A DNA stretch of 64,000 nt from positions 2,789 through 66,788 of the forward strand of contig JBGSLZ010000052.1 in assembly GCA_041740415.1 (NCBI GenBank). The letters are read 5' to 3'. The notes beneath the pieces are model-generated. The model had not been told where the DNA came from, ran no database searches, and saw only the letters and a list, made by a program, of their open reading frames with translations. Both the position numbers and the translations under genes were made by a program. Positions 52,243-63,718 of this stretch are shown here, piece after piece. How positions within the stretch are numbered: the stretch's first letter is position 1; each line of letters opens with the position of its first letter. Source of the stretch: Rubripirellula sp. Its GTDB lineage: Bacteria; Planctomycetota; Planctomycetia; Pirellulales; Pirellulaceae.

Positions 52243-52323
52243 CATTGAGAACTCCGGGAAGATGACCTGGCAGACATGTTGCCGAAACGACCTTCCTGAT
52301 ACCACGCAAACTGATCCATCTAA

Positions 52324-52445
52324 GGGACATCGACAAATAAGTTGCCAAATCAGCCGGAACGCATTAGCGTCCGGTTACCGTAAAAACCGTGTGCTAACGC
52401 ACGACATCTGATGCTTAGATCGTAAGATTATTTGCGGACGTTCCC
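52324..52445. mobile_element. 122-bp MITE-like element with imperfect TIRs and TAA duplications, carrying a family B REP doublet
   Basis: TAA|GGGACATCGACAAATAA ... TTATTTGCGGACGTTCCC|TAA; internal ATCAGCCGGAACGCATTAGCGTCCGG and a degenerate inverted copy. Confidence 0.7.
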
Positions 52446-52465
52446 TAAGCCCGAAAGTGTATTCA

Positions 52466-53272
52466 ATGTCACGCAGAGCAATCGTCACCGGCGGCAGTAC
52501 CGGGATCGGACGCAGTACCGCCATCGCCTTGGCCATGTCGGGTCATGACGTGGCAATTACGTTTGCTCACAACGAACATGAGGCGAAATCAACCGCCAAG
52601 GCCGTCGAAGCAGAAGGTCAGCGGTGCATCATCGCGCAACTTGACCTGTCAGAACCCAACAACGCCAGCTCTTGCGTTGACGAGATGGTCGAACAGCTCG
52701 GCGGTTTGGACGTCGTGGTCAGCAACGCGGGCATGATGGTCAATCAAAAACTGCCCGATCTCGATCTCGAGACTGCTTACAAGATTTTCAACGTCAATAC
52801 GTTCGGTGCGTTGTTGGTCATTCAGCGAGCCGTTCATCACATGCTGCCGGGCGGACTCGCCGGCGAACCTCGCAAGACTCCTGGACGCGTGATCGTTGTC
52901 ACCAGCGTCCATGAGGTGATCGCGAGCCCAACGGATACACTTTACACAATGACCAAACACGCACTGGGCGGAATGGTGAAGTGCCTAGCGCTCGACCTGA
53001 CACCGCTGAACATCACAGTCAACGCTGTCGCCCCCGGTGAGATCGCGACGCCAATGAACGATATGGACGCGGAAGACTTCGATGACGTGAAACGCCCGGC
53101 GATGCCAGCTCGTCGAGCGGGAAAACCGGACGAGGTGGCTGCGGTGATCGATTTCCTGGCCAGCGATAAGTGCGGTTTTGTGACGGGTGTTCGCTGGCCC
53201 ATCGACGGTGGATTTGAAGCCGCCACGCCGCTGGCCGCGTCAGGCTATCGCGAAGAATATCTCAAACAATGA
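52466..53272 (+). CDS. Classical SDR oxidoreductase
   Basis: TGGSTGIG, VSNAG, YTMTK, NAVAPG, DGG. Confidence 0.92.
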   Translation: MSRRAIVTGGSTGIGRSTAIALAMSGHDVAITFAHNEHEAKSTAKAVEAEGQRCIIAQLDLSEPNNASSCVDEMVEQLGGLDVVVSNAGMMVNQKLPDLDLETAYKIFNVNTFGALLVIQRAVHHMLPGGLAGEPRKTPGRVIVVTSVHEVIASPTDTLYTMTKHALGGMVKCLALDLTPLNITVNAVAPGEIATPMNDMDAEDFDDVKRPAMPARRAGKPDEVAAVIDFLASDKCGFVTGVRWPIDGGFEAATPLAASGYREEYLKQ

Positions 53273-54192
53273 ATGAATCGGCATCACAATCAGCACTCGA
53301 CTCTGCCGGACAGGGTGCTGAGAAAATTGCCGAGCTGTTTTATTGGATGACTGCTGGGGCGGCAGTGATCTGGATCGTTGTCGTTGGTTTGGCCGTCTAT
53401 GCAATCACGTCACGACGAGAGCACCCTGTACGCTTGACGAGCTGGCTGGTGATTGGTGGGGGAGCAGTCGTGCCAACGATCGTATTGACTCTCTTGCTGA
53501 GTTACGGACTCGCGATCCTTCCCGAATTGCAACGGCCTGCACCCGAGGGAAGCCTCACCATTGAAGTGGCTGGCGTTCGCTGGTGGTGGCGAGTCCATTA
53601 CACCGACCAGAACGGCGGACGTATTACAACGGCGAATGAAATTCATTTGCCTGTGAACCAACCGGTGGAGTTCAAGCTGACGAGCGAAGACGTGATTCAT
53701 TCGTTCTGGATTCCTTCACTGGGAGGGAAGGTTGACATGATGCCAGGCCGCACCAATCGTTTGAAACTTCACCCAACCCGCGAAGGAGTGTACAGCGGCG
53801 TGTGTGCGGAATACTGCGGCACGGCTCACGCACAGATGCGTTTTCGAGTTGTCGTGACGGATCAAGCAACTTTCGATGAATGGCTAACGAATCAGGCGAA
53901 GGACTATCAAGCAAATTCCGGTACAGGAGAATCGACGTTCCTCGCTCGCGGATGCTCCGCCTGTCACGCGATTCGCGGGACATCTGCCGATGGCGTTGTT
54001 GGCCCCGATCTGACACATTTCGGTTCTCGGCTTTCAATTGCCGCGGGCGTGCTTGACAACACAACAGAGAACCTCAAGTTGTGGCTTAACGATACGCATG
54101 GCGTAAAGCCAGGCGTCGAGATGCCGGAGTTTGAATCGCTCAGCGTCGATGAAATCGAGTCGCTCGTTGCCTTCCTGGGGTCGTTGCAATGA
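53269..54192 (+). CDS. ctaC: Cytochrome c oxidase subunit II with fused cytochrome c
   Basis: DVIHSFW and CAEYCGTAHAQM (CuA ligands); CSACH heme c motif. Confidence 0.93.
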   Translation: MNESASQSALDSAGQGAEKIAELFYWMTAGAAVIWIVVVGLAVYAITSRREHPVRLTSWLVIGGGAVVPTIVLTLLLSYGLAILPELQRPAPEGSLTIEVAGVRWWWRVHYTDQNGGRITTANEIHLPVNQPVEFKLTSEDVIHSFWIPSLGGKVDMMPGRTNRLKLHPTREGVYSGVCAEYCGTAHAQMRFRVVVTDQATFDEWLTNQAKDYQANSGTGESTFLARGCSACHAIRGTSADGVVGPDLTHFGSRLSIAAGVLDNTTENLKLWLNDTHGVKPGVEMPEFESLSVDEIESLVAFLGSLQ

Positions 54193-56672
54193 ACGAACAA
54201 GCCCAACGATTGCTCGAAGCGTGGCGAACACCGAAAGGATGGCGGTACTGGTCCGCCGTCAATAATTCCGAAGTCGGGCTGTGGTACACGATCACGGCGT
54301 TCGCGTTCCTGCTGTTCGGTGGATTGCTCGCGCTGGCGATGCGCATCCAACTCGCCGTTCCCGATAACGATTTTCTCACGGCGGATCAATACAACCAAGT
54401 CTTCACGATGCACGGCAGCGTGATGATGTTCTTGTTTGCCGTGCCGATCCTCGAAGCGATCTCGATCTTGCTGTTGCCGCAAATGATGGGCGCTCGCGAC
54501 TTGCCGTTTCCACGTTTGTCAGCTTACGGATTTTGGTCGTTCCTGATCGGTGGCATCTTTGTTTGCGGCTCGCTTTTTTTCGGTGCGGGACCACGCGGTG
54601 GATGGTTCATGTATCCACCGATGACGACGGAATATCAAACCGATGTGGGAGCCGACATTTGGCTGCTTGGTCTGTCGTTTATCGAAATCGCGTCGATCGC
54701 AGCAGCAGTCGAGCTGATCGTCGGTGTGCTGAAATGCCGCCCGCCAGGGATGCGATTGAACTTGATCCCGCTGTACGCTTGGTACATCTTGGTGGTCGCG
54801 GCGATGATCCTGTTCGCCTTCCCACCATTGATCGCCGGTGACTTGTTGATGGAGTTGGAACGGGCACTGGATTGGCCGTTCTTTGACGTGTCACGCGGCG
54901 GCGATCCGATGTTGTGGCAACATCTGTTCTGGATTTTCGGACATCCTGAAGTCTACATCGTGTTCCTGCCGTCGATCGCCTTGGTGGCAATGATCGTCCC
55001 GACATTTGCGCGCACACCGATGGTCGGCTATGGCTGGATTGTGCTGGCGGCGGTCGGCACTGGCTTCCTGAGTTTCGGGTTGTGGGTTCACCACATGTTC
55101 ACCACCGGATTGCCAGGAATCACGATCGGAATTTTCTCGGCGGCATCCGAAGCCGTTGCAATTCCAACGGGCGTGCAAATCTTTTGCTTCATCGCCACGC
55201 TGCTGGTCGGTCGAGTCACCAAGTCCGTCTGTTTGCTGTTCGTACTGGCAGGGTTGGCCACGTTCATCATCGGTGGTTTAACCGGAGTGATGGTCGCGAT
55301 CGCACCGTTCGACTATCAAGCTCACGACACTTACTTCATCGTCGGCCATCTGCACTACGTCCTGGTCGGCGGCACCATCTTCCCAATTGTCGCAGGCGTC
55401 TACTATTTCTATCCGTTGGTCACTGGCAAGCAGCTCTCCGAGCGACTCGGCACGATCGCATTTTGGCTGATGATGATCGGCTTCAACGTCAGCTTCTTTC
55501 CGATGCACATCACCGGATTGATCGGAATGCCACGGCGAGTCTACACCTATCCAGCGGGCATGGGATTCGACAACCTGAACATGATTTCGTCGATCGGTGC
55601 TTTTGTATTGGCCGCTGGATTTGTGGTCTTTTTGTGGGATTTGCTGCGACCAAAAGGCAAACAACCGCTCGCGCCTCGGAACGTGTGGAACGCGGGAACG
55701 CTGGAATGGTTGGCTGAAGTTCCCGATCAACCGTGGGGCGTCCGCAGCATTCCGATTATCAAATCACGCTATCCGCTCTGGGATCAAGAGAACTTTGTGC
55801 GCGACGTTGATGAAGGAAAATTCTATCTTCCCGATGCAGAAGAGGGCTTGCGAGAAACGCTGGTGACATCGACGGTCGAAGCGACACCGATTCAGTGTTT
55901 ACGAGTTCCCGGTCCAACGTTCTTGACCTTGGGGGCGGCTGTCTTTACCGGCGGTGTTTTTATCTTCGGCACGTTTCACTGGTATGTTGCAACCTGCATC
56001 AGCGGTGTGCTGGCGTTCTTCACCATTCTTGCTTGGTTGTGGACAGGCACGGCGATCATCCCCGAGAAGACCGAGAAAGACGTTGGCTTAGGCTTGACGC
56101 TGCCGATCTATGTGTCGGGACCGGACGCGGTCGGATGGTGGGCCATGTTCATCACGATGCTGGGTGACATGACCGCGTTCATGTCGTTGGTGTTCGGATA
56201 CTTTTTCTACTGGACGGTTCACGAAGACTTTCCGCCAAAGGACGTTGATGGTCCCGGAGTTATCTGGCCATTGGTATCAGTCATTTGTACTTTGATCGCG
56301 TGGACATTGATGCTGCTGTCGCGTAAGTCGAACCGCCGCGAAGGTGCCGGAGTGTTTTACATCATCACGGTGTTGTCGGTCGTCATGGCATGCTGTGCCG
56401 CGGGCTCGCTGGTCGCTGGACCTTGGCTGCACCAGATGGACCCGACCGAGCATGTTTATCAATCGTCGGTTTGCGTACTCGTGTTATGGACCGTTGTTCA
56501 TTTGGCGGTCGGCGTTGTCATGCAGTTGTATTGCATGGCACGACGCGCGGCCGGGAAGATGACACATCGTTTTGATGCTGACATTGTGAACGTGACTCTG
56601 TACTGGCACTTCATGATGCTGACCGCAGGCATTACGGGACTAACGATCGCCTTGTTTCCGTTGGCGGCGTGA
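54189..56672 (+). CDS. ctaD: Cytochrome c oxidase subunit I fused to a subunit III-like C-terminal domain (alternative, CoxN-like)
   Basis: TMHG, GHPEVY, VHHM, GHLHY; the extra C-terminal region has WWAMFITM and LYWHF. Confidence 0.92.
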   Translation: MNEQAQRLLEAWRTPKGWRYWSAVNNSEVGLWYTITAFAFLLFGGLLALAMRIQLAVPDNDFLTADQYNQVFTMHGSVMMFLFAVPILEAISILLLPQMMGARDLPFPRLSAYGFWSFLIGGIFVCGSLFFGAGPRGGWFMYPPMTTEYQTDVGADIWLLGLSFIEIASIAAAVELIVGVLKCRPPGMRLNLIPLYAWYILVVAAMILFAFPPLIAGDLLMELERALDWPFFDVSRGGDPMLWQHLFWIFGHPEVYIVFLPSIALVAMIVPTFARTPMVGYGWIVLAAVGTGFLSFGLWVHHMFTTGLPGITIGIFSAASEAVAIPTGVQIFCFIATLLVGRVTKSVCLLFVLAGLATFIIGGLTGVMVAIAPFDYQAHDTYFIVGHLHYVLVGGTIFPIVAGVYYFYPLVTGKQLSERLGTIAFWLMMIGFNVSFFPMHITGLIGMPRRVYTYPAGMGFDNLNMISSIGAFVLAAGFVVFLWDLLRPKGKQPLAPRNVWNAGTLEWLAEVPDQPWGVRSIPIIKSRYPLWDQENFVRDVDEGKFYLPDAEEGLRETLVTSTVEATPIQCLRVPGPTFLTLGAAVFTGGVFIFGTFHWYVATCISGVLAFFTILAWLWTGTAIIPEKTEKDVGLGLTLPIYVSGPDAVGWWAMFITMLGDMTAFMSLVFGYFFYWTVHEDFPPKDVDGPGVIWPLVSVICTLIAWTLMLLSRKSNRREGAGVFYIITVLSVVMACCAAGSLVAGPWLHQMDPTEHVYQSSVCVLVLWTVVHLAVGVVMQLYCMARRAAGKMTHRFDADIVNVTLYWHFMMLTAGITGLTIALFPLAA

Positions 56673-57037
56673 GGCTTATGAACATCAATCTCTGGTGGCT
56701 GACATTCTCACCGCTTTGCTGGGCCAGCCATTTCCTAGCGAGCTATTTGACGACTGCAATCTACTGCGCCAAGTTTACTTCAGCGGACAGTGATGCGATG
56801 CCCGTTCGCATTGCTGTCGCTATTTTTACCGCCATTGCACTGACAATGATTGCGACAATTGGCGTGACAAGTTTGCGAGTGCATCGCATGGGACATGCGA
56901 CATTGCCGCATGACGACGACACACCGCGCGACGAACAGCGTTTTCTTGGATTTGCGGCTTTGTTGTTATCAATTTTGAGCGGTATCGCGACGCTCTTTAC
57001 CGCGCTCGTCTTCTTTTTCATGGAGACCTGTCACTGA
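56669..57037 (+). CDS. Three-TM accessory membrane protein of the oxidase operon
   Basis: Overlapping junctions; WASHFL.SY...YCAK. Confidence 0.75.
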   Translation: MRLMNINLWWLTFSPLCWASHFLASYLTTAIYCAKFTSADSDAMPVRIAVAIFTAIALTMIATIGVTSLRVHRMGHATLPHDDDTPRDEQRFLGFAALLLSILSGIATLFTALVFFFMETCH

Positions 57038-57726
57038 TGCGTTTGGCAACTTGGAATCTCGGTTGGATTTTGCTCGCGGTGGCTTGGATGGGGCCGCTAC
57101 CGCGCTGGGCCGAAAGTTCGTTTGCGGCCCACATGACGCTGCACATGTTGATCGTTGCGATGGTCGCGCCGCTGTTGTCGATCGCGATAGCGGGGCTTCG
57201 ATACGATCCAGTGCAAAAAGTTCCCGCATTGTTTTCGCCGATCCCCGCCTCGGTAGGTGAGTTGCTGATCGTGTGGGCGTGGCACGCTCCGCGACTGCAT
57301 CACTGGGCACGTCATGAATCGCTCGGATTGATTGTTGAGCAAGGAATGTTCCTGGCCGTCGGAATGTGGGTGTGGTTATCGGCGTTCGGTGGCAGTCAAC
57401 CACGAAGCCACGGTCGAGCCGGCGCGGGAGTGGTTGGTCTGCTGTTGACCTCGATGCACATGACCTTCTTGGGTGCATTATTGGCGCTGTCGCCACGTCT
57501 GCTTTATCAGCATCATCATGCGGGATCAGGACTGACTCCGCTGACGGATCAACATGTTGGCGGCGCGGTGATGTTGGTCGTCGGCGGCATCGCCTACTTG
57601 GTAGGCGGACTTTGGTTGACGAGGGATTTAGTGCGTCCCACGAGCCGTTTTGATGCAGACCACCGCTCTCTCGCAAAAAACGTCGCTAGCGCTGCAGCAG
57701 CGAGCCACTCGGAGCTAATTCAATGA
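57037..57726 (+). CDS. Cytochrome c oxidase assembly factor (caa3 CtaG type)
   Basis: HMTLHMLIV..APL, WAWHAP, DQHVGG..M. Confidence 0.85.
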   Translation: MRLATWNLGWILLAVAWMGPLPRWAESSFAAHMTLHMLIVAMVAPLLSIAIAGLRYDPVQKVPALFSPIPASVGELLIVWAWHAPRLHHWARHESLGLIVEQGMFLAVGMWVWLSAFGGSQPRSHGRAGAGVVGLLLTSMHMTFLGALLALSPRLLYQHHHAGSGLTPLTDQHVGGAVMLVVGGIAYLVGGLWLTRDLVRPTSRFDADHRSLAKNVASAAAASHSELIQ

Positions 57727-58814
57727 AACGACGACTCAAAGAACTTGCAATCTTGCTAACGGCACTCGGCATTCTTGGCGTGATCGTACTCGTCTCGGGA
57801 ATCGTCCCGATCAAGGCGAGCAGCGGGCATTGGCCGATCACGCGGTGGACGCTTGACTTCGCCAGTGATCGTTCGGTTGGTTTGCACAGTATCGGTATCG
57901 AGGTTCCGCCGCTGGACGAACCCGGCATGGTCCGGCTGGGTGCAGCGACCTTCGACAGCAATTGTCGCTGGTGCCACGGCGCGCCCGGGTTTGCGCAGCC
58001 ACCCGTCGCCGCACAGATGACTCCGCATCCACCGAAACTGTCCGAAGCGGTGAATCTGTGGGACGATGCTGAGTTGTTCTACATCTTGAAACACGGCATC
58101 AAGTTCGCCGGGATGCCTGCTTGGCCGACGCAGAAGCGTGAGGAAGAAATCTGGCCCGTCGTCGCCTTCTTGCGTGAGTTGCCGACGACCGACGCCAGCC
58201 AGTACCTCAACTTGATTCAGCCGGCTTCTACCGAAATTCAAGCGATCGAAACGCCGATCGCCTATCAAGTTGCAAGGTCGTGTGCCGCCTGTCACGGAAT
58301 GACCGGCAGCACACCCGTCAGCGATCGCGTGCCAAACCTGGCTTCGCAGAGTCAGGCGTATCTGAAGAGATCGTTGCTCGCTTATCAAACCGGCGACCGA
58401 TACAGCGGCGTGATGATGCCGATTGCTCATCCTTTGACAGACCAACAAATCGACGAGCTGGCAAGTTATTTCGCCAAACAACCACGCAGTGCCTCGCCTC
58501 CGACGGCCTCGTTAGATATAGGCTTGATCGAAACAGGTCGCAGACTTGCCAACGAAGGCGACCAATCCGCAAAAATTCCATCGTGTGTCGACTGTCATGG
58601 ACCAGGAGAAATCATACGAAGCGACGAATACCCGACGCTGGCTGGTCAACCCGCACAATATCTACAACGACAGCTTGAGTTGTTCGCCAAAAGAAACCGA
58701 GGCGGCAGCGACAACGCATCACTCATGCACCCCATCGTCGACAAACTGGGCGACGCTCAGCGACTCGCTCTGTCGTTCTACTACGCTTCACTCCATGAAG
58801 ACAGCGACAATTGA
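57723..58814 (+). CDS. Membrane-anchored triheme c-type cytochrome
   Basis: CRWCH, CAACH, CVDCH. Confidence 0.9.
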   Translation: MKRRLKELAILLTALGILGVIVLVSGIVPIKASSGHWPITRWTLDFASDRSVGLHSIGIEVPPLDEPGMVRLGAATFDSNCRWCHGAPGFAQPPVAAQMTPHPPKLSEAVNLWDDAELFYILKHGIKFAGMPAWPTQKREEEIWPVVAFLRELPTTDASQYLNLIQPASTEIQAIETPIAYQVARSCAACHGMTGSTPVSDRVPNLASQSQAYLKRSLLAYQTGDRYSGVMMPIAHPLTDQQIDELASYFAKQPRSASPPTASLDIGLIETGRRLANEGDQSAKIPSCVDCHGPGEIIRSDEYPTLAGQPAQYLQRQLELFAKRNRGGSDNASLMHPIVDKLGDAQRLALSFYYASLHEDSDN

Positions 58815-59392
58815 AAACCATATCGCTGACCAAACCAGACGCCGACGACGTGCTACGCTTTCTGGAGCAGCAATCGAAGTGCGACTTCAACTATCCCGAT
58901 GTTGGAGCAACAAGCGGCGAGTTGCCAATGGGCTATGACCATCACCGTACCGAAGTTACCTTGGGGCAAGGCGAGACTGTCTATCAACGAGCCAAATCGG
59001 CGTTACTGGCCTGGGAGCAGTTCGATGTCGGATGGGTCAGCGCGTTACCCGCGAGCACGCCGATCCGCGAGGGTGAGAATATCGCAATCCGCGCTCGCAT
59101 CTTTGGACTTTGGGCGCTTGCGGCTTGCCGAATCGTTAGAGTCTTTGACGACAACGCTTCGGCGACAAAGACTTTCGGCTTTGCGTTTGGTACGCTGCCA
59201 GGACATCCCGAGCAGGGTGAAGAGCAATTTGAAATTGTCTGTGACGCAAACTTGATCGTGACGTATCGCATCGCGGCATTTTTTCGTCCCAACTATCTAG
59301 CAGCGAAATTAGCGTGGCCCTACTTTCGTATTTGCTTCAACGACTTTCGACACCAATCCACCGACACACTTCTTCGCAGATGCAATGAATAG
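58811..59392 (+). CDS. DUF1990 family protein
   Basis: FNYPDVGAT, LGQGE, CRIV, FGFAFGTLPGHPEQGEEQF. Confidence 0.85.
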   Translation: MKTISLTKPDADDVLRFLEQQSKCDFNYPDVGATSGELPMGYDHHRTEVTLGQGETVYQRAKSALLAWEQFDVGWVSALPASTPIREGENIAIRARIFGLWALAACRIVRVFDDNASATKTFGFAFGTLPGHPEQGEEQFEIVCDANLIVTYRIAAFFRPNYLAAKLAWPYFRICFNDFRHQSTDTLLRRCNE

Positions 59393-60065: not shown

Positions 60066-60512
60066 TTATCGCGACCAGCGATCGCGCCAAGAAAGCTCTC
60101 GCTCACGTTGGCCGCCGATCGAGATACCTACGAACAATCCAACCAGTAGTCCCACGCCCAGAGCAACGCCAGCGGACTCCAAAGGGTGGCGCGACATACT
60201 TTTTACTGACGTCTGATAGCTTCGGCGAGCTTGTTCTGCAGTCGCATCGTAACCGTCGCGGATTGTTTGACCTGCCTCGCTCGCATAGTTCGCAACTTGA
60301 CCCATGACGGAATCCGCCGACGCACAGCATTCGTCAAAGTACGCCTCGATCTGGTCGCGGCTCTGGCCAGTCTTCTGTTGAACCAGGCCCGCCAACTTAT
60401 CCAAGTCGCCTTCGACTTGCTTTAATTCGTTGTCAGTGATTTCGCCGTATTTCTTCTTCACTGAGCCGACGATCGAGTTCCATTTTCCGCTAATTTCTTG
60501 TTTCGTAGCCAT
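60066..60512 (-). CDS. csbD: CsbD family protein with an ElaB/DUF883-like C-terminal TM
   Basis: GKWNSIVGSVKKKYGEITDNEL..VEG..DKLAGLVQQKTG; HPLES.GVALGVGLLVG. Confidence 0.88.
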   Translation of the reverse strand: MATKQEISGKWNSIVGSVKKKYGEITDNELKQVEGDLDKLAGLVQQKTGQSRDQIEAYFDECCASADSVMGQVANYASEAGQTIRDGYDATAEQARRSYQTSVKSMSRHPLESAGVALGVGLLVGLFVGISIGGQRERELSWRDRWSR

Positions 60513-60613
60513 CGTAAATTCCTCGTGTAACAGCGTCTGTTTATCAGCTTCAATTGCGTCGCTGATGCTCTTGCGCAGCCTCAGAAAGGCAGCGACGAAC
60601 ACTCTCCCGACAA

Positions 60614-60627
60614 GCATTTGTCGTGCC
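60614..60627 (-). promoter_or_regulatory. Sigma-54 -24/-12 motif, csbD
   Basis: (T)GGCACGACAAATGC, about 100 bp upstream. Confidence 0.75.
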
Positions 60628-60686
60628 AAGTTAAATCAATTACGCGTGCCGCTTTAGTGTCGCTCGCACTCATGTATTGAGAGCTT

Positions 60687-60760: not shown

Positions 60761-61345
60761 ACGAAACGAATTTCAATTCTTTCCACCGCAGTGGCGGTAT
60801 TGCTCTCGGCATCGGTTGCCTCAGCCCAAACTCCTTCTACAGCGCAAGGAACCGATGCGGGTAGGCTTGACAGCAAGACGAGCGGCTCCAACGTCCGCGT
60901 TAGCCAATTGATGGGTGTTAACTTGCAGAACGCTCAAGGCGAGAGCGCGGGTGAAATCCGTGATCTCGTCCTGGACAGCAAGACAGGCAAAGTCCGCTAT
61001 GGCGCAGGCACCTACGGCGGTTTCATCGTCATGGGCGATAAGCTATTTACCGTTCCATTTGAAGCTTTCATTGTTCAACGCGATCCGGATGATCCGGATG
61101 ATCCGAATGACGCGGACGACTTCGTAGTGGTTTTGAACGTCAGCCAACAAAGGTTGGATGGTGCTGTGGGATTCGATCAAGATCACTGGCCGAACATGGC
61201 AGACCAAAAATGGGCCCGTGACTTGGACACTCGATACGGAGTCGATCGAAACCGAATGCGGGATCGCAGTCCAGGAACCGGTGACGACGTGAACGTCAAT
61301 CGTAATGGCGTCGACGTGGACGTGAATCGTGATCGAAGTCAGTAA
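60761..61345 (+). CDS. Secreted PRC-barrel protein; start codon reads ACG
   Basis: AAGGAAC-N4-ACG AAA CGA ATT gives a complete signal peptide; VSQLMG.NLQNAQGESAGEIRDLVLD; 9-bp repeat x3 at 61082-61108. Confidence 0.8.
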   Translation, partial: TKRISILSTAVAVLLSASVASAQTPSTAQGTDAGRLDSKTSGSNVRVSQLMGVNLQNAQGESAGEIRDLVLDSKTGKVRYGAGTYGGFIVMGDKLFTVPFEAFIVQRDPDDPDDPNDADDFVVVLNVSQQRLDGAVGFDQDHWPNMADQKWARDLDTRYGVDRNRMRDRSPGTGDDVNVNRNGVDVDVNRDRSQ

Positions 61346-62476: not shown

Positions 62477-63718
62477 TCATTGACTCGACGCTTTTGGGGC
62501 ACGTTGGTAATACGATAGTAATGGTGTTGCCGCGTTGCTGTGAATGAGCAACGACAATGCAATCGTTGTCAGCACGATTCCGCCGAGTCGAATCGCGAGT
62601 TCTGGGTCCAAGCCTTCTCCGATTGCATAGGTCAAGTAATACAGTGATCCGATGCCGCGAATGCCAAAGAAAGCAATCAGTCCTTTTTGAAGGGGTTTGA
62701 CGGGACTGCGGACCAGCGAAGCGTAGACGGCGACGGGCCTGATGACAAAGAACAAAAGGATCGCGATCCACCAGTCGACTGCCATCGTCCAGTGCGTCGT
62801 TAACAGCACTCCAATCAGAACGACCAGCCCGACTTCAAAAATTTGGCCGAACCGTTCGTTGACGCCGGTGACCATCTTCATCAATGTGTCGGCTTCATCA
62901 TCGTCTTCGCCGTCTTCGGCAAACTTTCGCATGGCGACTCCTGCTGCAAACACCGCGAGAAAGCCGTAAGCGTGAATCGCCAGTGCGAGTCCGTAACTGA
63001 TCCCGATCATCCCGAGCACCAACAGTTCTTCGCTCGCCGTGGGTGCCGACGATTTCACACGAACGACGACCGCCAACCGACTGATGATGTATCCGACGCC
63101 CCAACCGCACGCGACGCCAGCGATCGTTGCCCAAAGCAGGTCAACCACGGCCCATCGCCAACCGAAGTCACCTAATTCGTGAAGACCCAGCAGACCGATA
63201 CCAAGCATCACAAATGGAAACGCCGTGCCATCGTTCAGGCCAGCCTCGCCAGTCAGCGAATAGCGAAGTCGGTCTCGGTCGTCATGGTGCTTAACCTGTA
63301 CATCGCCTGCCAATACCGGATCAGTCGGCGCTAAAACCGCACCAAGCAAAACGGCCGCACCGATGGAAAGTCCGAGCGCCCAATATCCGAGCGCGGCCAT
63401 CATCGCAATCGTCATCAACATGGCGATAGAGGCAAGGGGAATTGCAGCCCGCTTCAATTGCGTCAGCGACGGGGATAATCGCAATCCTGCACCGAGCAGA
63501 CTCAAAAGCACGCCAATCTCGGTAACCGTCGCGATCGTTTCAGCGTTCTTGAACAGATCGACTTGAACCAAGTCGAATCCCCACGGACCGATCAATGCAC
63601 CGATCGCAAGATAAATGGCAGACAACGACAACGGCAATGCTTTAAGCGGCCCTTCACCAAACGCCGCGACAAGAAAAACACTGCCGACGATAAGCGCCCA
63701 AACGGTTATCGGTTCCAT
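62477..63718 (-). CDS. Cation:proton antiporter (CPA1/NhaP type)
   Basis: LAPTDPV, EAGLNDG, FFVIRP, FFGIRGIGSLYY. Confidence 0.92.
   Translation of the reverse strand: MEPITVWALIVGSVFLVAAFGEGPLKALPLSLSAIYLAIGALIGPWGFDLVQVDLFKNAETIATVTEIGVLLSLLGAGLRLSPSLTQLKRAAIPLASIAMLMTIAMMAALGYWALGLSIGAAVLLGAVLAPTDPVLAGDVQVKHHDDRDRLRYSLTGEAGLNDGTAFPFVMLGIGLLGLHELGDFGWRWAVVDLLWATIAGVACGWGVGYIISRLAVVVRVKSSAPTASEELLVLGMIGISYGLALAIHAYGFLAVFAAGVAMRKFAEDGEDDDEADTLMKMVTGVNERFGQIFEVGLVVLIGVLLTTHWTMAVDWWIAILLFFVIRPVAVYASLVRSPVKPLQKGLIAFFGIRGIGSLYYLTYAIGEGLDPELAIRLGGIVLTTIALSLLIHSNAATPLLSYYQRAPKASSQ

What the first reader, a model, noticed from the sequence alone, without database searches (positions are those of the whole stretch)
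53269..58814. Alternative heme-copper oxidase with altered proton-channel residues and a triheme cytochrome
Seen: all metal ligands and GHPEVY are intact. However, the K-channel Lys position reads PTGVQIF (CAA at 55176; canonical PTG(V/I)K), and the Asn after the D-channel Asp reads DLPFPRLSA (TCA at 54519; canonical PRLN). Subunit I is fused to a subunit III-like domain, subunit II carries heme c, and a triheme cytochrome follows. Established: the K-channel Lys is needed for normal turnover in A-type oxidases. Inference: a low-activity, uncoupled or differently gated oxidase for stress or stationary phase. It resembles the poorly understood CoxMNOP type.
Basis: partly seen in the sequence, partly recalled or inferred. 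Interest (0 to 1): 0.6.

Follow-up and report, generated by a model that had tools for sequence, protein, structure and literature searches.

The report
Cytochrome oxidase with rewired proton channels
This five-gene cassette encodes an intact, strongly conserved accessory cytochrome c oxidase from a widespread but unstudied branch of the family in which the textbook K proton path is dismantled and the D path is re-lined with glutamates, so it is a natural test of how these enzymes move protons.

Summary
Subunit I reads PTGVQIF (CAA at 55176) where canonical enzymes have the K-channel Lys, and PRLSA (TCA at 54519) where they have the first gate Asn. All haem and Cu ligands and GHPEVY are intact.

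- N121 is Ile, N207 is Glu, S299 is Ala and S365 is Cys (R. sphaeroides numbering).
- New Glu residues sit at positions 89 and 166.
- Subunit II lacks the Glu at the K-channel entrance.

These are clade characters, not a local defect. In a 70-sequence cross-phylum clade, E166 is invariant, Q330 occurs in 67/70 and E175 in 62/70. The N-to-S change is variable.

The cassette is subunit II-cyt c, subunit I+III, a 3-TM protein, Caa3_CtaG and an anchored triheme cytochrome c. It is under purifying selection (dN/dS about 0.1). It is patchy among relatives (2 of 40) and nests among Alphaproteobacteria and Acidobacteriota, so it was horizontally acquired. It sits beside a canonical A2 caa3 and a cbb3 oxidase.

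Best reading: a working O2 reductase that feeds all protons through a rebuilt D-type path, with coupling probably altered. "Low activity" and "CoxMNOP type" are not supported. An earlier follow-up in this scan (e1-5204562) reached the same reading on other DNA.

The parts
53269..54192 (+). Subunit II (307 aa): 2 TM helices, cupredoxin CuA domain and a C-terminal cytochrome c domain (CSACH). TM2 reads ...WLVIGGGAVVP... and has no Glu at the K-channel entry position.
   Evidence: Pfam COX2 and Cytochrom_C; NCBIfam CoxB 183.8 bits vs cut-off 147.7. TM2 alignment with E. coli CyoA E89 and the genome's own A2 subunit II.
54189..56672 (+). Subunit I fused to subunit III (827 aa). The COX1 domain spans about residues 20-525 and the 7-TM COX3 domain about residues 545-827 (nt 55821-56669).
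   Evidence: Pfam COX1 2.5e-139; TIGR02891 695 bits vs cut-off 670.75. hhalign vs CyoC 93.8%. AF2 plus Foldseek to subunit III chains.
55176..55178 (+). CAA = Q330, at the position of the K-channel Lys (K362 Rs/Ec, K354 Pd).
   Evidence: Q in 67/70 clade members.
55185..55187 (+). C333 at the position of lower K-channel S365 (Rs) / N365 (Ec).
   Evidence: clade A35/C20/S7 vs canonical N14/S9.
54987..54989 (+). A267 at the position of K-channel S299 (Rs) / S291 (Pd).
54519..54521 (+). TCA = S111 at the position of gate Asn N139 (Rs) / N131 (Pd).
   Evidence: variable in the clade.
54465..54467 (+). I93 at the position of gate Asn N121 (Rs) / N113 (Pd).
   Evidence: I/V/M in the clade, N in 24/24 canonical sequences.
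54711..54713 (+). E175 at the position of gate Asn N207 (Rs) / N199 (Pd).
   Evidence: E in 62/70, N in 24/24 canonical sequences.
54684..54686 (+). E166, a new helix IV Glu at the position of the conserved G198 (Rs/Ec), next to S197/S200/S201. It is the clade's invariant hallmark.
   Evidence: E in 70/70, G in 23/24 canonical sequences; gained once on the tree.
54453..54455 (+). E89, a new helix II Glu one turn (i-4) above the N121 position.
   Evidence: E in 61/70.
54498..54500 (+). D104, the retained D-channel entry Asp (D132 Rs).
54942..54956 (+). H252-P-E254-V-Y256: CuB His, the A1-type Glu (E286) and the cross-link Tyr (Y288), all retained.
56669..57037 (+). 122-aa protein with three TM helices and no family assignment. 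It is a conserved cassette member and possibly a subunit IV-like component.
   Evidence: No Pfam or NCBIfam hit. The Atlas returns only unnamed clusters. Syntenic in L005-L018, L023, L049 and L085.
57037..57726 (+). Caa3_CtaG-type CuB assembly factor (229 aa); the only one in the genome.
   Evidence: Pfam PF09678 2.1e-28; single hit in the genome.
57723..58814 (+). Membrane-anchored triheme cytochrome c (363 aa; CRWCH, CAACH, CVDCH); the presumed dedicated electron donor.
   Evidence: syntenic in the subclade with 60% identity or more.
52457..53272 (+). SDR oxidoreductase whose stop overlaps the subunit II start by 4 nt. It is a lineage-specific add-on, not part of the conserved cassette.
   Evidence: not adjacent to the cassette in any of the 80 loci, only weak SDR-like hits (24-34% identity) kilobases away in 7 of them, and absent from the same-genus orthologous locus.
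58811..59392 (+). DUF1990 protein whose start overlaps the cytochrome c stop by 4 nt. It is a lineage-specific add-on.
   Evidence: absent in related loci.

Best explanation
The region is a self-contained, horizontally mobile five-gene cassette for an accessory A-family cytochrome c oxidase. Shown: the redox machinery is complete. It comprises the triheme cytochrome c, haem c and CuA in subunit II, two bis/mono-His haem sites, CuB with three His, and the cross-link Tyr, together with a dedicated CuB insertase; haem A synthase is encoded elsewhere in the genome. Shown: the canonical K path is taken apart at four of its six named positions (subunit II entry Glu absent, S365->C, K362->Q, S299->A); only T359 and Y288 remain. 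Shown: the D path keeps its two ends (D104, E254), but its Asn gate (N121/N139/N207) is replaced by Ile/Ser/Glu and two further Glu are added (E89, E166). Inferred: electrons flow from the anchored triheme cytochrome to haem c, CuA, haem a and then haem a3-CuB, where O2 is reduced. Inferred: all substrate protons, and any pumped ones, enter through the rebuilt D-type path along a ladder of carboxylates D104-E175-E89-E166-E254. Inferred from mutant precedent: a carboxylate at the gate uncouples canonical enzymes, so the H+/e- ratio is probably lower than 2 charges per electron (no or reduced pumping, about 40% likely) unless the extra Glu compensate. In a genome that also has a canonical A2 caa3 and a cbb3 oxidase, this enzyme would serve as an alternative branch, for example for high-flux or high-pmf electron disposal.
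For: Ligands and motifs are intact and the protein scores above the NCBIfam CtaD equivalog cut-off. Channel substitutions were mapped against PDB sequences and E. coli CyoB. Clade-wide statistics: E166 70/70, Q330 67/70, E175 62/70, E89 61/70, N121 never Asn; the canonical set is 24/24 N, N, N, K. No new basic residue replaces the Lys. The subunit II entry Glu is missing across the clade. Trees under LG+G4 and LG+C20 PMSF recover the non-K clade and the E166 clade at 99-100 SH-aLRT; E166 was gained once and K lost once for this whole clade. Purifying selection: pN 0.136 vs pS 0.644 for subunit I+III against the same-genus orthologue. It is accessory and mobile: 2 of 40 relatives carry it; Planctomycetota rows nest with Rhizobiales, Paracoccaceae, Sphingomonadaceae and Acidobacteriota at 60-74% identity; carrier genomes have 3-6 HCO subunit I genes. 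The only Caa3_CtaG in the genome is in the cassette, and a CtaA gene is present. Precedents: N139D/N207D uncouple with turnover retained (PMC7196763); natural K-less A-family oxidases exist in Fe-oxidisers (PMC8239418; bioRxiv 10.1101/2020.03.01.968255).
Against: There is no biochemical or expression datum for any clade member. K362M-type mutants of canonical enzymes lose oxidase activity (PMC7601700), so O2 turnover without a K path needs a compensation that is not demonstrated here. That E89 and E166 line the channel is inferred from helix periodicity and from the Gly they replace, not from coordinates. One subclade lacks both D132 and E175, so the lower D path may not be the universal entry. 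Q330 is too conserved to be a mere loss, which hints at a residual role in the upper K region.
Confidence: 0.7

Rival explanations
1. It is a conventional, fully coupled proton-pumping caa3 oxidase. A water-based K path still works through T327/Q330/Y256, as B-type oxidases manage without a Lys, and the Glu substitutions in the D path are compensated, so H+/e- and turnover are canonical.
For: The active site is of A1 type and the D entry Asp and E286 equivalent are kept. Q330 and a T/S at 359 are conserved. B- and C-type enzymes use Lys-free K analogues (PMC3084760). D132N/N139D double mutants regain pumping (PMC7196763), so relocated carboxylates can be compatible with coupling.
Against: The lower K path is apolar: there is no entry Glu in subunit II, S365 is A/C and S299 is A here. 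An acidic residue at 207 uncouples both tested canonical enzymes (PMC7196763).
Confidence: 0.17
2. The physiological oxidant is not O2. The enzyme would be a membrane-bound, charge-separating cytochrome c peroxidase (H2O2 reductase) that uses only the D-type path, or else an NO reductase.
For: K362M abolishes oxidase activity but leaves the D-channel-dependent peroxidase activity of canonical CcO intact (PMC7601700), and this clade is naturally K-less with an elaborated D path. Stress-type genes lie downstream.
Against: Natural K-less A-family enzymes of Fe-oxidisers are O2 reductases (PMC8239418). The CuB site and cross-link Tyr are those of O2 reductases, and the NOR motifs described in PMC3084760 are not present. 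There is no peroxide-related gene in the conserved cassette.
Confidence: 0.08
3. It is a decaying or non-functional paralogue retained by chance.
For: Key residues whose mutation inactivates model enzymes are changed.
Against: dN/dS is about 0.1. All ligands are kept, the signature residues are invariant over many phyla, the five-gene synteny is intact with overlapping stops and starts, and there are no stops or frameshifts.
Confidence: 0.02

Closest known systems
Thermus thermophilus caa3 oxidase (PDB 2YEV)
   Same: Same architecture: subunit I fused to a 7-TM subunit III, and subunit II fused to a cytochrome c domain. 2yev_A matches subunit I at E 3.9e-113 and the C-terminal model at Foldseek E 8.5e-07.
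   Different: The Thermus enzyme is A2-type and is listed with a canonical K channel (PMC8239418, Table S1). The window's enzyme is GHPEVY (A1 motif) with K->Q and a rebuilt Asn gate, and it brings its own CtaG, a 3-TM protein and a triheme cytochrome c.
'A1 type, subtype a, COX1-3 fused' operons with Caa3_CtaG (Degli Esposti classification; PMC4013037, PMC6431628, PMC8239418 Table S1)
   Same: Fused COX1-3, the HPEVY motif, Caa3_CtaG in the cluster, cytochrome c genes at the end, and occurrence in Proteobacteria and Chloroflexi.
   Different: That table scores the subtype's K channel as 'yes', and its residue table (suppl. Table 3) has no Gln variant. Here Q replaces K in 67/70 members and the D channel is remodelled. 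Whether that row means exactly this clade could not be checked.
K-less A-family oxidases of acidophilic Fe(II) oxidisers (Acidithiobacillus rus-operon aa3)
   Same: Natural loss of the K-channel Lys and of the subunit II entry Glu in a working O2 reductase; Caa3_CtaG is associated (PMC8239418; bioRxiv 10.1101/2020.03.01.968255).
   Different: Those enzymes carry hydrophobic residues (I/V/L/M/F) at K354, keep a canonical D channel, have two extra N-terminal TM helices and form a separate lineage (rows P0197/P0214). This clade has Gln plus three new Glu.
Engineered decoupled mutants N139D/N131D/N99D and N207D/N199D of aa3 oxidases
   Same: A carboxylate at the Asn gate of the D channel; E175 sits exactly at N207.
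   Different: Those are single substitutions in an otherwise canonical enzyme with an intact K path. Here the change is natural and is accompanied by loss of the other gate Asn residues, two more Glu and loss of the K path.
CoxMNOP (A1 subtype a-III) alternative oxidase of Bradyrhizobium/Pseudomonas
   Same: An accessory A1-type oxidase of unclear role in multi-oxidase bacteria.
   Different: CoxN is a separate subunit I, CoxO and CoxP are two separate subunit III paralogues, and CoxM can carry two haems c (PMC5492768). The a-III subtype has the canonical K channel (PMC8239418, suppl. Table 3).

Membership tests
Heme-copper oxidase superfamily, O2-reducing A family | Six conserved His (low-spin haem x2, high-spin haem x1, CuB x3) | tested here: met
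   H75, H389, H387, H252, H301 and H302 align with Ec H106, H421, H419, H284, H333 and H334.
Heme-copper oxidase superfamily, O2-reducing A family | Helix VI cross-link Tyr (Tyr-I) and, for type A1, the Glu of the XGHPEV motif | tested here: met
   FGHPEVY at residues 250-256; present in all 121 close homologues.
Heme-copper oxidase superfamily, O2-reducing A family | Canonical D-channel set (Pd D124, N199, N113, N131, Y35, S134, S193, E278; PMC3084760) | tested here: not met
   Kept: D104, Y33, S169, E254. Changed: N199->E175, N113->I93, N131->S111, S134->G114.
Heme-copper oxidase superfamily, O2-reducing A family | Canonical K-channel set (Pd K354, T351, S291, Y280, plus subunit II E78) | tested here: not met
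   K->Q330, S->A267 and the subunit II Glu absent; T327 and Y256 kept.
Heme-copper oxidase superfamily, O2-reducing A family | Curated sequence model for cytochrome c oxidase subunit I (TIGR02891, equivalog) | tested here: met
   695.2 bits vs cut-off 670.75.
caa3-type architecture (Thermus/Bacillus-like) | Subunit II with CuA and a fused cytochrome c domain | tested here: met
   Pfam COX2 plus Cytochrom_C; CuA ligand pattern and one CxxCH.
caa3-type architecture (Thermus/Bacillus-like) | Subunit I-subunit III fusion | tested here: met
   hhalign 93.8% to CyoC; Foldseek TM 0.70-0.78 to subunit III chains and to 2yev_A.
caa3-type architecture (Thermus/Bacillus-like) | Haem a / a3 as cofactors | not testable with these tools
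   A CtaA-like gene exists in the genome, but the haem type needs spectroscopy.
CoxMNOP (A1 subtype a-III) | Separate subunit I and a doublet of separate subunit III genes (coxO, coxP) | tested here: not met
   There is a single fused COX3 domain and no further COX3-like gene in the cassette. The family definition is from PMC6431628 and PMC5492768.
Nitric oxide reductases (cNOR/qNOR) | No cross-link Tyr-I, no CuA, and NOR motifs H-X-Arom-X-E / HH-X-Arom-Arom-X17-E (PMC3084760) | tested here: not met
   Tyr-I is present, the CuA site is present and GHPEVY is present.

The most novel reading that the evidence does not exclude
The clade is a natural 'D-only' heme-copper enzyme whose real job is not energy-efficient O2 respiration. 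In the most novel form it is a membrane-bound, charge-separating cytochrome c:H2O2 oxidoreductase. It would run only the peroxidase half of the oxidase cycle, which in canonical enzymes needs the D but not the K path. A milder form (about 35-40% likely) is a constitutively non-pumping O2 reductase.
Probability: 0.07. Interest if true: 0.85.

Novelty: new variant of a known kind. Interest (0 to 1): 0.6.

Why it matters
Ideas about how A-type oxidases gate and pump protons rest largely on point mutants of three or four model enzymes: K362M, N139D, N207D, D132N and E286Q. Here evolution has fixed the equivalents of several of these 'lethal' or 'uncoupling' changes together. They have been kept under strong selection in a clade spanning at least nine phyla, including culturable Planctomycetes, Rhizobiales, Paracoccus, Sphingomonas and Pseudomonas. 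Measuring turnover, O2 affinity and H+/e- of one member, and solving its structure, would test three things directly:
- whether a K path is dispensable;
- whether carboxylates can replace the Asn gate without loss of pumping;
- what physiological niche a possibly low-coupling oxidase fills.

The result also flags that automatic annotation ('cytochrome c oxidase subunit I') and genome-based bioenergetic budgets treat this enzyme as a standard aa3 oxidase, which may be wrong.

Tried and rejected
- Expression: no RNA holder was listed. The only holder is the probable source, a biofilm metagenome.
- Pfam COX3 does not hit the C-terminal domain even at E<=10. Profile-profile and fold comparison were needed.
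- The 3-TM protein has no match in Pfam, NCBIfam or named Atlas clusters.
- The sigma-70 and terminator scan was uninformative: 1 promoter-like site vs 4.3 expected.
- Sigma-54 pattern matches were at the chance level: 80 vs 71 expected. One 1-mismatch site at 52268-52282 lies upstream of the SDR gene and is not interpretable.
- Literature searches for bll4481-79, coxAC/K15408 and K362Q/K354Q in oxidases found nothing relevant.
- The P. pseudoalcaligenes KF707 oxidase study covers coxI-II-III and coxMNOP only, not this fused type.
- No conserved new Lys, Arg or His that could replace K362 was found.
- The careful IQ-TREE run did not finish in time. The quick trees under two models agree.
- Rejected: a degenerate gene (conservation, dN/dS).
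- Rejected: CoxMNOP membership (architecture).
- Rejected: NOR (Tyr-I, CuA).
Full report
**What is there.** Seven + strand ORFs are chained by 4-nt (once 1-nt) stop/start overlaps between 52457 and 59392:
- an SDR (52457-53272);
- subunit II with CuA and one haem c (53269-54192);
- an 827-aa subunit I (54189-56672);
- a 122-aa protein with three TM helices and no family (56669-57037);
- a Caa3_CtaG CuB assembly factor (57037-57726);
- a membrane-anchored cytochrome c with three CxxCH (57723-58814);
- a DUF1990 protein (58811-59392).

Only the middle five genes are syntenic in related loci, including the same-genus orthologue. The SDR and DUF1990 genes are local add-ons.

**Checking the observation.**
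- The codons are as stated: caa at 55176 within IPTGVQIF, and tca at 54519 within DLPFPRLSA.
- HMMER alignments to solved oxidases place Q330 under the Lys of iptgvkif and S111 under the first Asn of prln.
- An alignment with E. coli CyoB (fetched as L004) fixes the numbering: K362->Q330, N142(Ec)=N139(Rs)->S111, D135->D104, E286->E254, Y288->Y256. All six His ligands and R481/R482 are kept.
- The C-terminal 283 residues are missed by Pfam COX3. They nevertheless match E. coli subunit III by profile comparison (93.8%). They fold with pLDDT 93 into seven helices that superpose on Paracoccus, Rhodobacter and bovine subunit III at TM 0.70-0.78.

The fusion, the haem c on subunit II and the triheme cytochrome are all confirmed.

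**The rewiring is broader than reported.** The D- and K-channel residue sets used here are those listed in PMC3084760 and PMC10341450.

| Path | Kept | Changed or added |
|---|---|---|
| D | D104, Y33, S169, E254 | N121->I93, N139->S111, N207->E175, S142->G114; new E89 (helix II, i-4 of the N121 position); new E166 (helix IV, replacing the near-invariant G198 beside S197/S200/S201) |
| K | T327, Y256 | K362->Q330, S365->C333, S299->A267; subunit II TM2 reads VIGGG where canonical enzymes, including this genome's own caa3, have the entry Glu |

No new conserved basic residue appears anywhere in subunit I.

**These are clade characters.**
- All 119 close homologues (73-92% identity, mostly Planctomycetota) in which the motifs could be read have Q and S.
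- Representatives at 50% clustering and 80 genome loci extend the pattern to Acidobacteriota, Alpha-, Beta- and Gammaproteobacteria, Gemmatimonadota, Chloroflexota, Actinomycetota, Verrucomicrobiota and Bdellovibrionota.
- In 70 clade sequences, E166 is 70/70, Q330 67/70, E175 62/70 and E89 61/70, and the N121 position is never Asn. In 24 K-bearing comparators the Asn triad, G198 and the Lys are essentially invariant.
- Trees under LG+G4 (120 rows) and LG+C20 PMSF (65 rows) both recover a non-K clade (100) and, within it, the E166 clade (99-100). E166 was gained once and the Lys lost once for the whole group.
- The sister groups keep the Asn triad. One is an actinobacterial K->Q group; the other is a 'W clade' with E286->W and K->A.
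- This suggests that the K path went first and the D path was rebuilt afterwards.

**Functional status and biology.**
- Against the same-genus orthologue, subunit I+III shows pN 0.136 vs pS 0.644 (dN/dS about 0.1). CtaG and the cytochrome c behave similarly.
- The genome (6.56 Mb, 99.99% complete) also encodes a canonical A2 caa3 (YSHPAVY, with the Lys and all Asn present) and a cbb3 with fused CcoNO.
- It has a haem A synthase gene, and its only Caa3_CtaG is the one in this cassette.
- Only 2 of 40 relatives carry an orthologue.
- The window's protein sits in a 100-supported subclade with Botrimarina, Acidobacteriota, Aurantimonadaceae, Mesorhizobium/Neorhizobium, Paracoccaceae and Sphingomonas at 60-74% identity.
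- Five carrier genomes from four families have 3-6 HCO subunit I genes each.

The cassette is therefore an accessory, horizontally exchanged oxidase module.

**Mechanism.**
- Electron path (inferred from domain content): anchored triheme cytochrome c -> haem c -> CuA -> low-spin haem -> high-spin haem/CuB.
- Proton path (inferred): the lower K path is apolar, so substrate protons must come through the D-type path. That path now offers a series of carboxylates (D104, E175, E89, E166, E254) instead of an Asn-gated water file.
- Established mutant data bear on both halves. N139D/N131D/N99D and N207D/N199D keep or raise turnover but abolish pumping, and D132N/N139D regains it (PMC7196763). K362M abolishes oxidase activity but not the D-dependent peroxidase activity (PMC7601700). 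Natural K-less A-family O2 reductases exist in Fe-oxidisers (PMC8239418; bioRxiv 10.1101/2020.03.01.968255).
- The most likely reading is a working O2 reductase with a D-only proton supply and altered, probably lower, coupling.
- One caveat: a subclade lacks both D132 and E175 while keeping E166, so E166 rather than the lower D path may be the essential novelty.

**Comparison with the known.**
- Architecturally the closest solved enzyme is Thermus caa3 (2YEV), which is A2-type with a canonical K path.
- In Degli Esposti's operon scheme the cassette matches 'A1 subtype a, COX1-3 fused, with Caa3_CtaG'. That table scores the K channel as present, and its residue survey contains no Gln variant.
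- I found no paper describing this signature, but the searchable library is limited.
- It is not CoxMNOP, which has a separate subunit I, two separate subunit III genes and a canonical K path.
- An earlier follow-up in this scan (e1-5204562) reached the same reading on another genome. My analysis was done independently and agrees.

**Verdict.** The enzyme is a new variant of a known kind. It is of real interest to oxidase bioenergetics, but every functional statement remains inference until one member is assayed.

Noticed in passing
L058, L062, L063, L067, L069, L070, L073, L074, L076, L081 (Rhodanobacter, Paraburkholderia, Caballeronia, Burkholderia, Hyphomicrobium, Sphingomonadaceae loci): A sister 'W clade' of subunit I genes keeps the whole Asn triad and D132. 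It has Trp in place of the A1 Glu (GHPWVY) and Ala in place of the K-channel Lys. This is another unexplained natural variant.
   Followed up: partly
L045, L068, L071, L072, L077, L083 (Actinomycetota loci): An actinobacterial group has K->Q with a canonical D channel, and the E286 position is E/D/L. It looks like the intermediate state before the D-channel rebuild.
   Followed up: partly
L056, L057, L061, L065, L066, L078: A subclade of the E166 clade lacks both the entry Asp (N/S) and E175 (V/I/S) but keeps E166 and Q330. The lower D path may therefore be dispensable in this family.
   Followed up: no
G000:C125:122354-123649 (L003 1312-3729): The genome's cbb3 oxidase has CcoN and CcoO fused in one 805-aa ORF, followed by a CcoP-like gene.
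   Followed up: no
window 52457-53272 and 58811-59392: An SDR and a DUF1990 gene are joined to the cassette by 4-nt overlaps in this genome. Neither adjoins the cassette in any of the 80 related loci, and both are missing from the same-genus orthologous locus.
   Followed up: partly
window 60066-60629 (-), 60791-61345 (+), 62477-63718 (-): Downstream neighbours are a CsbD-like/DUF883 stress protein, a PRC-barrel protein and a Na+/H+ exchanger. This is weak contextual support for a stress-linked region.
   Followed up: no
window 52353-52400: Two short imperfect palindromes (ccggaacgcattagcgtccgg and cgtgtgctaacgcacg) lie in the 150-nt gap upstream of the SDR start and could be operators. A 1-mismatch sigma-54-like site lies at 52268-52282, but such matches occur at the chance rate in this window.
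   Followed up: partly
G006, G011, G017, G020, G023 and others: Many same-genus relatives lack this cassette. They carry another A-type subunit I with a roughly 760-aa open frame that is 41-44% identical. That may be a further fused oxidase type in this genus.
   Followed up: no
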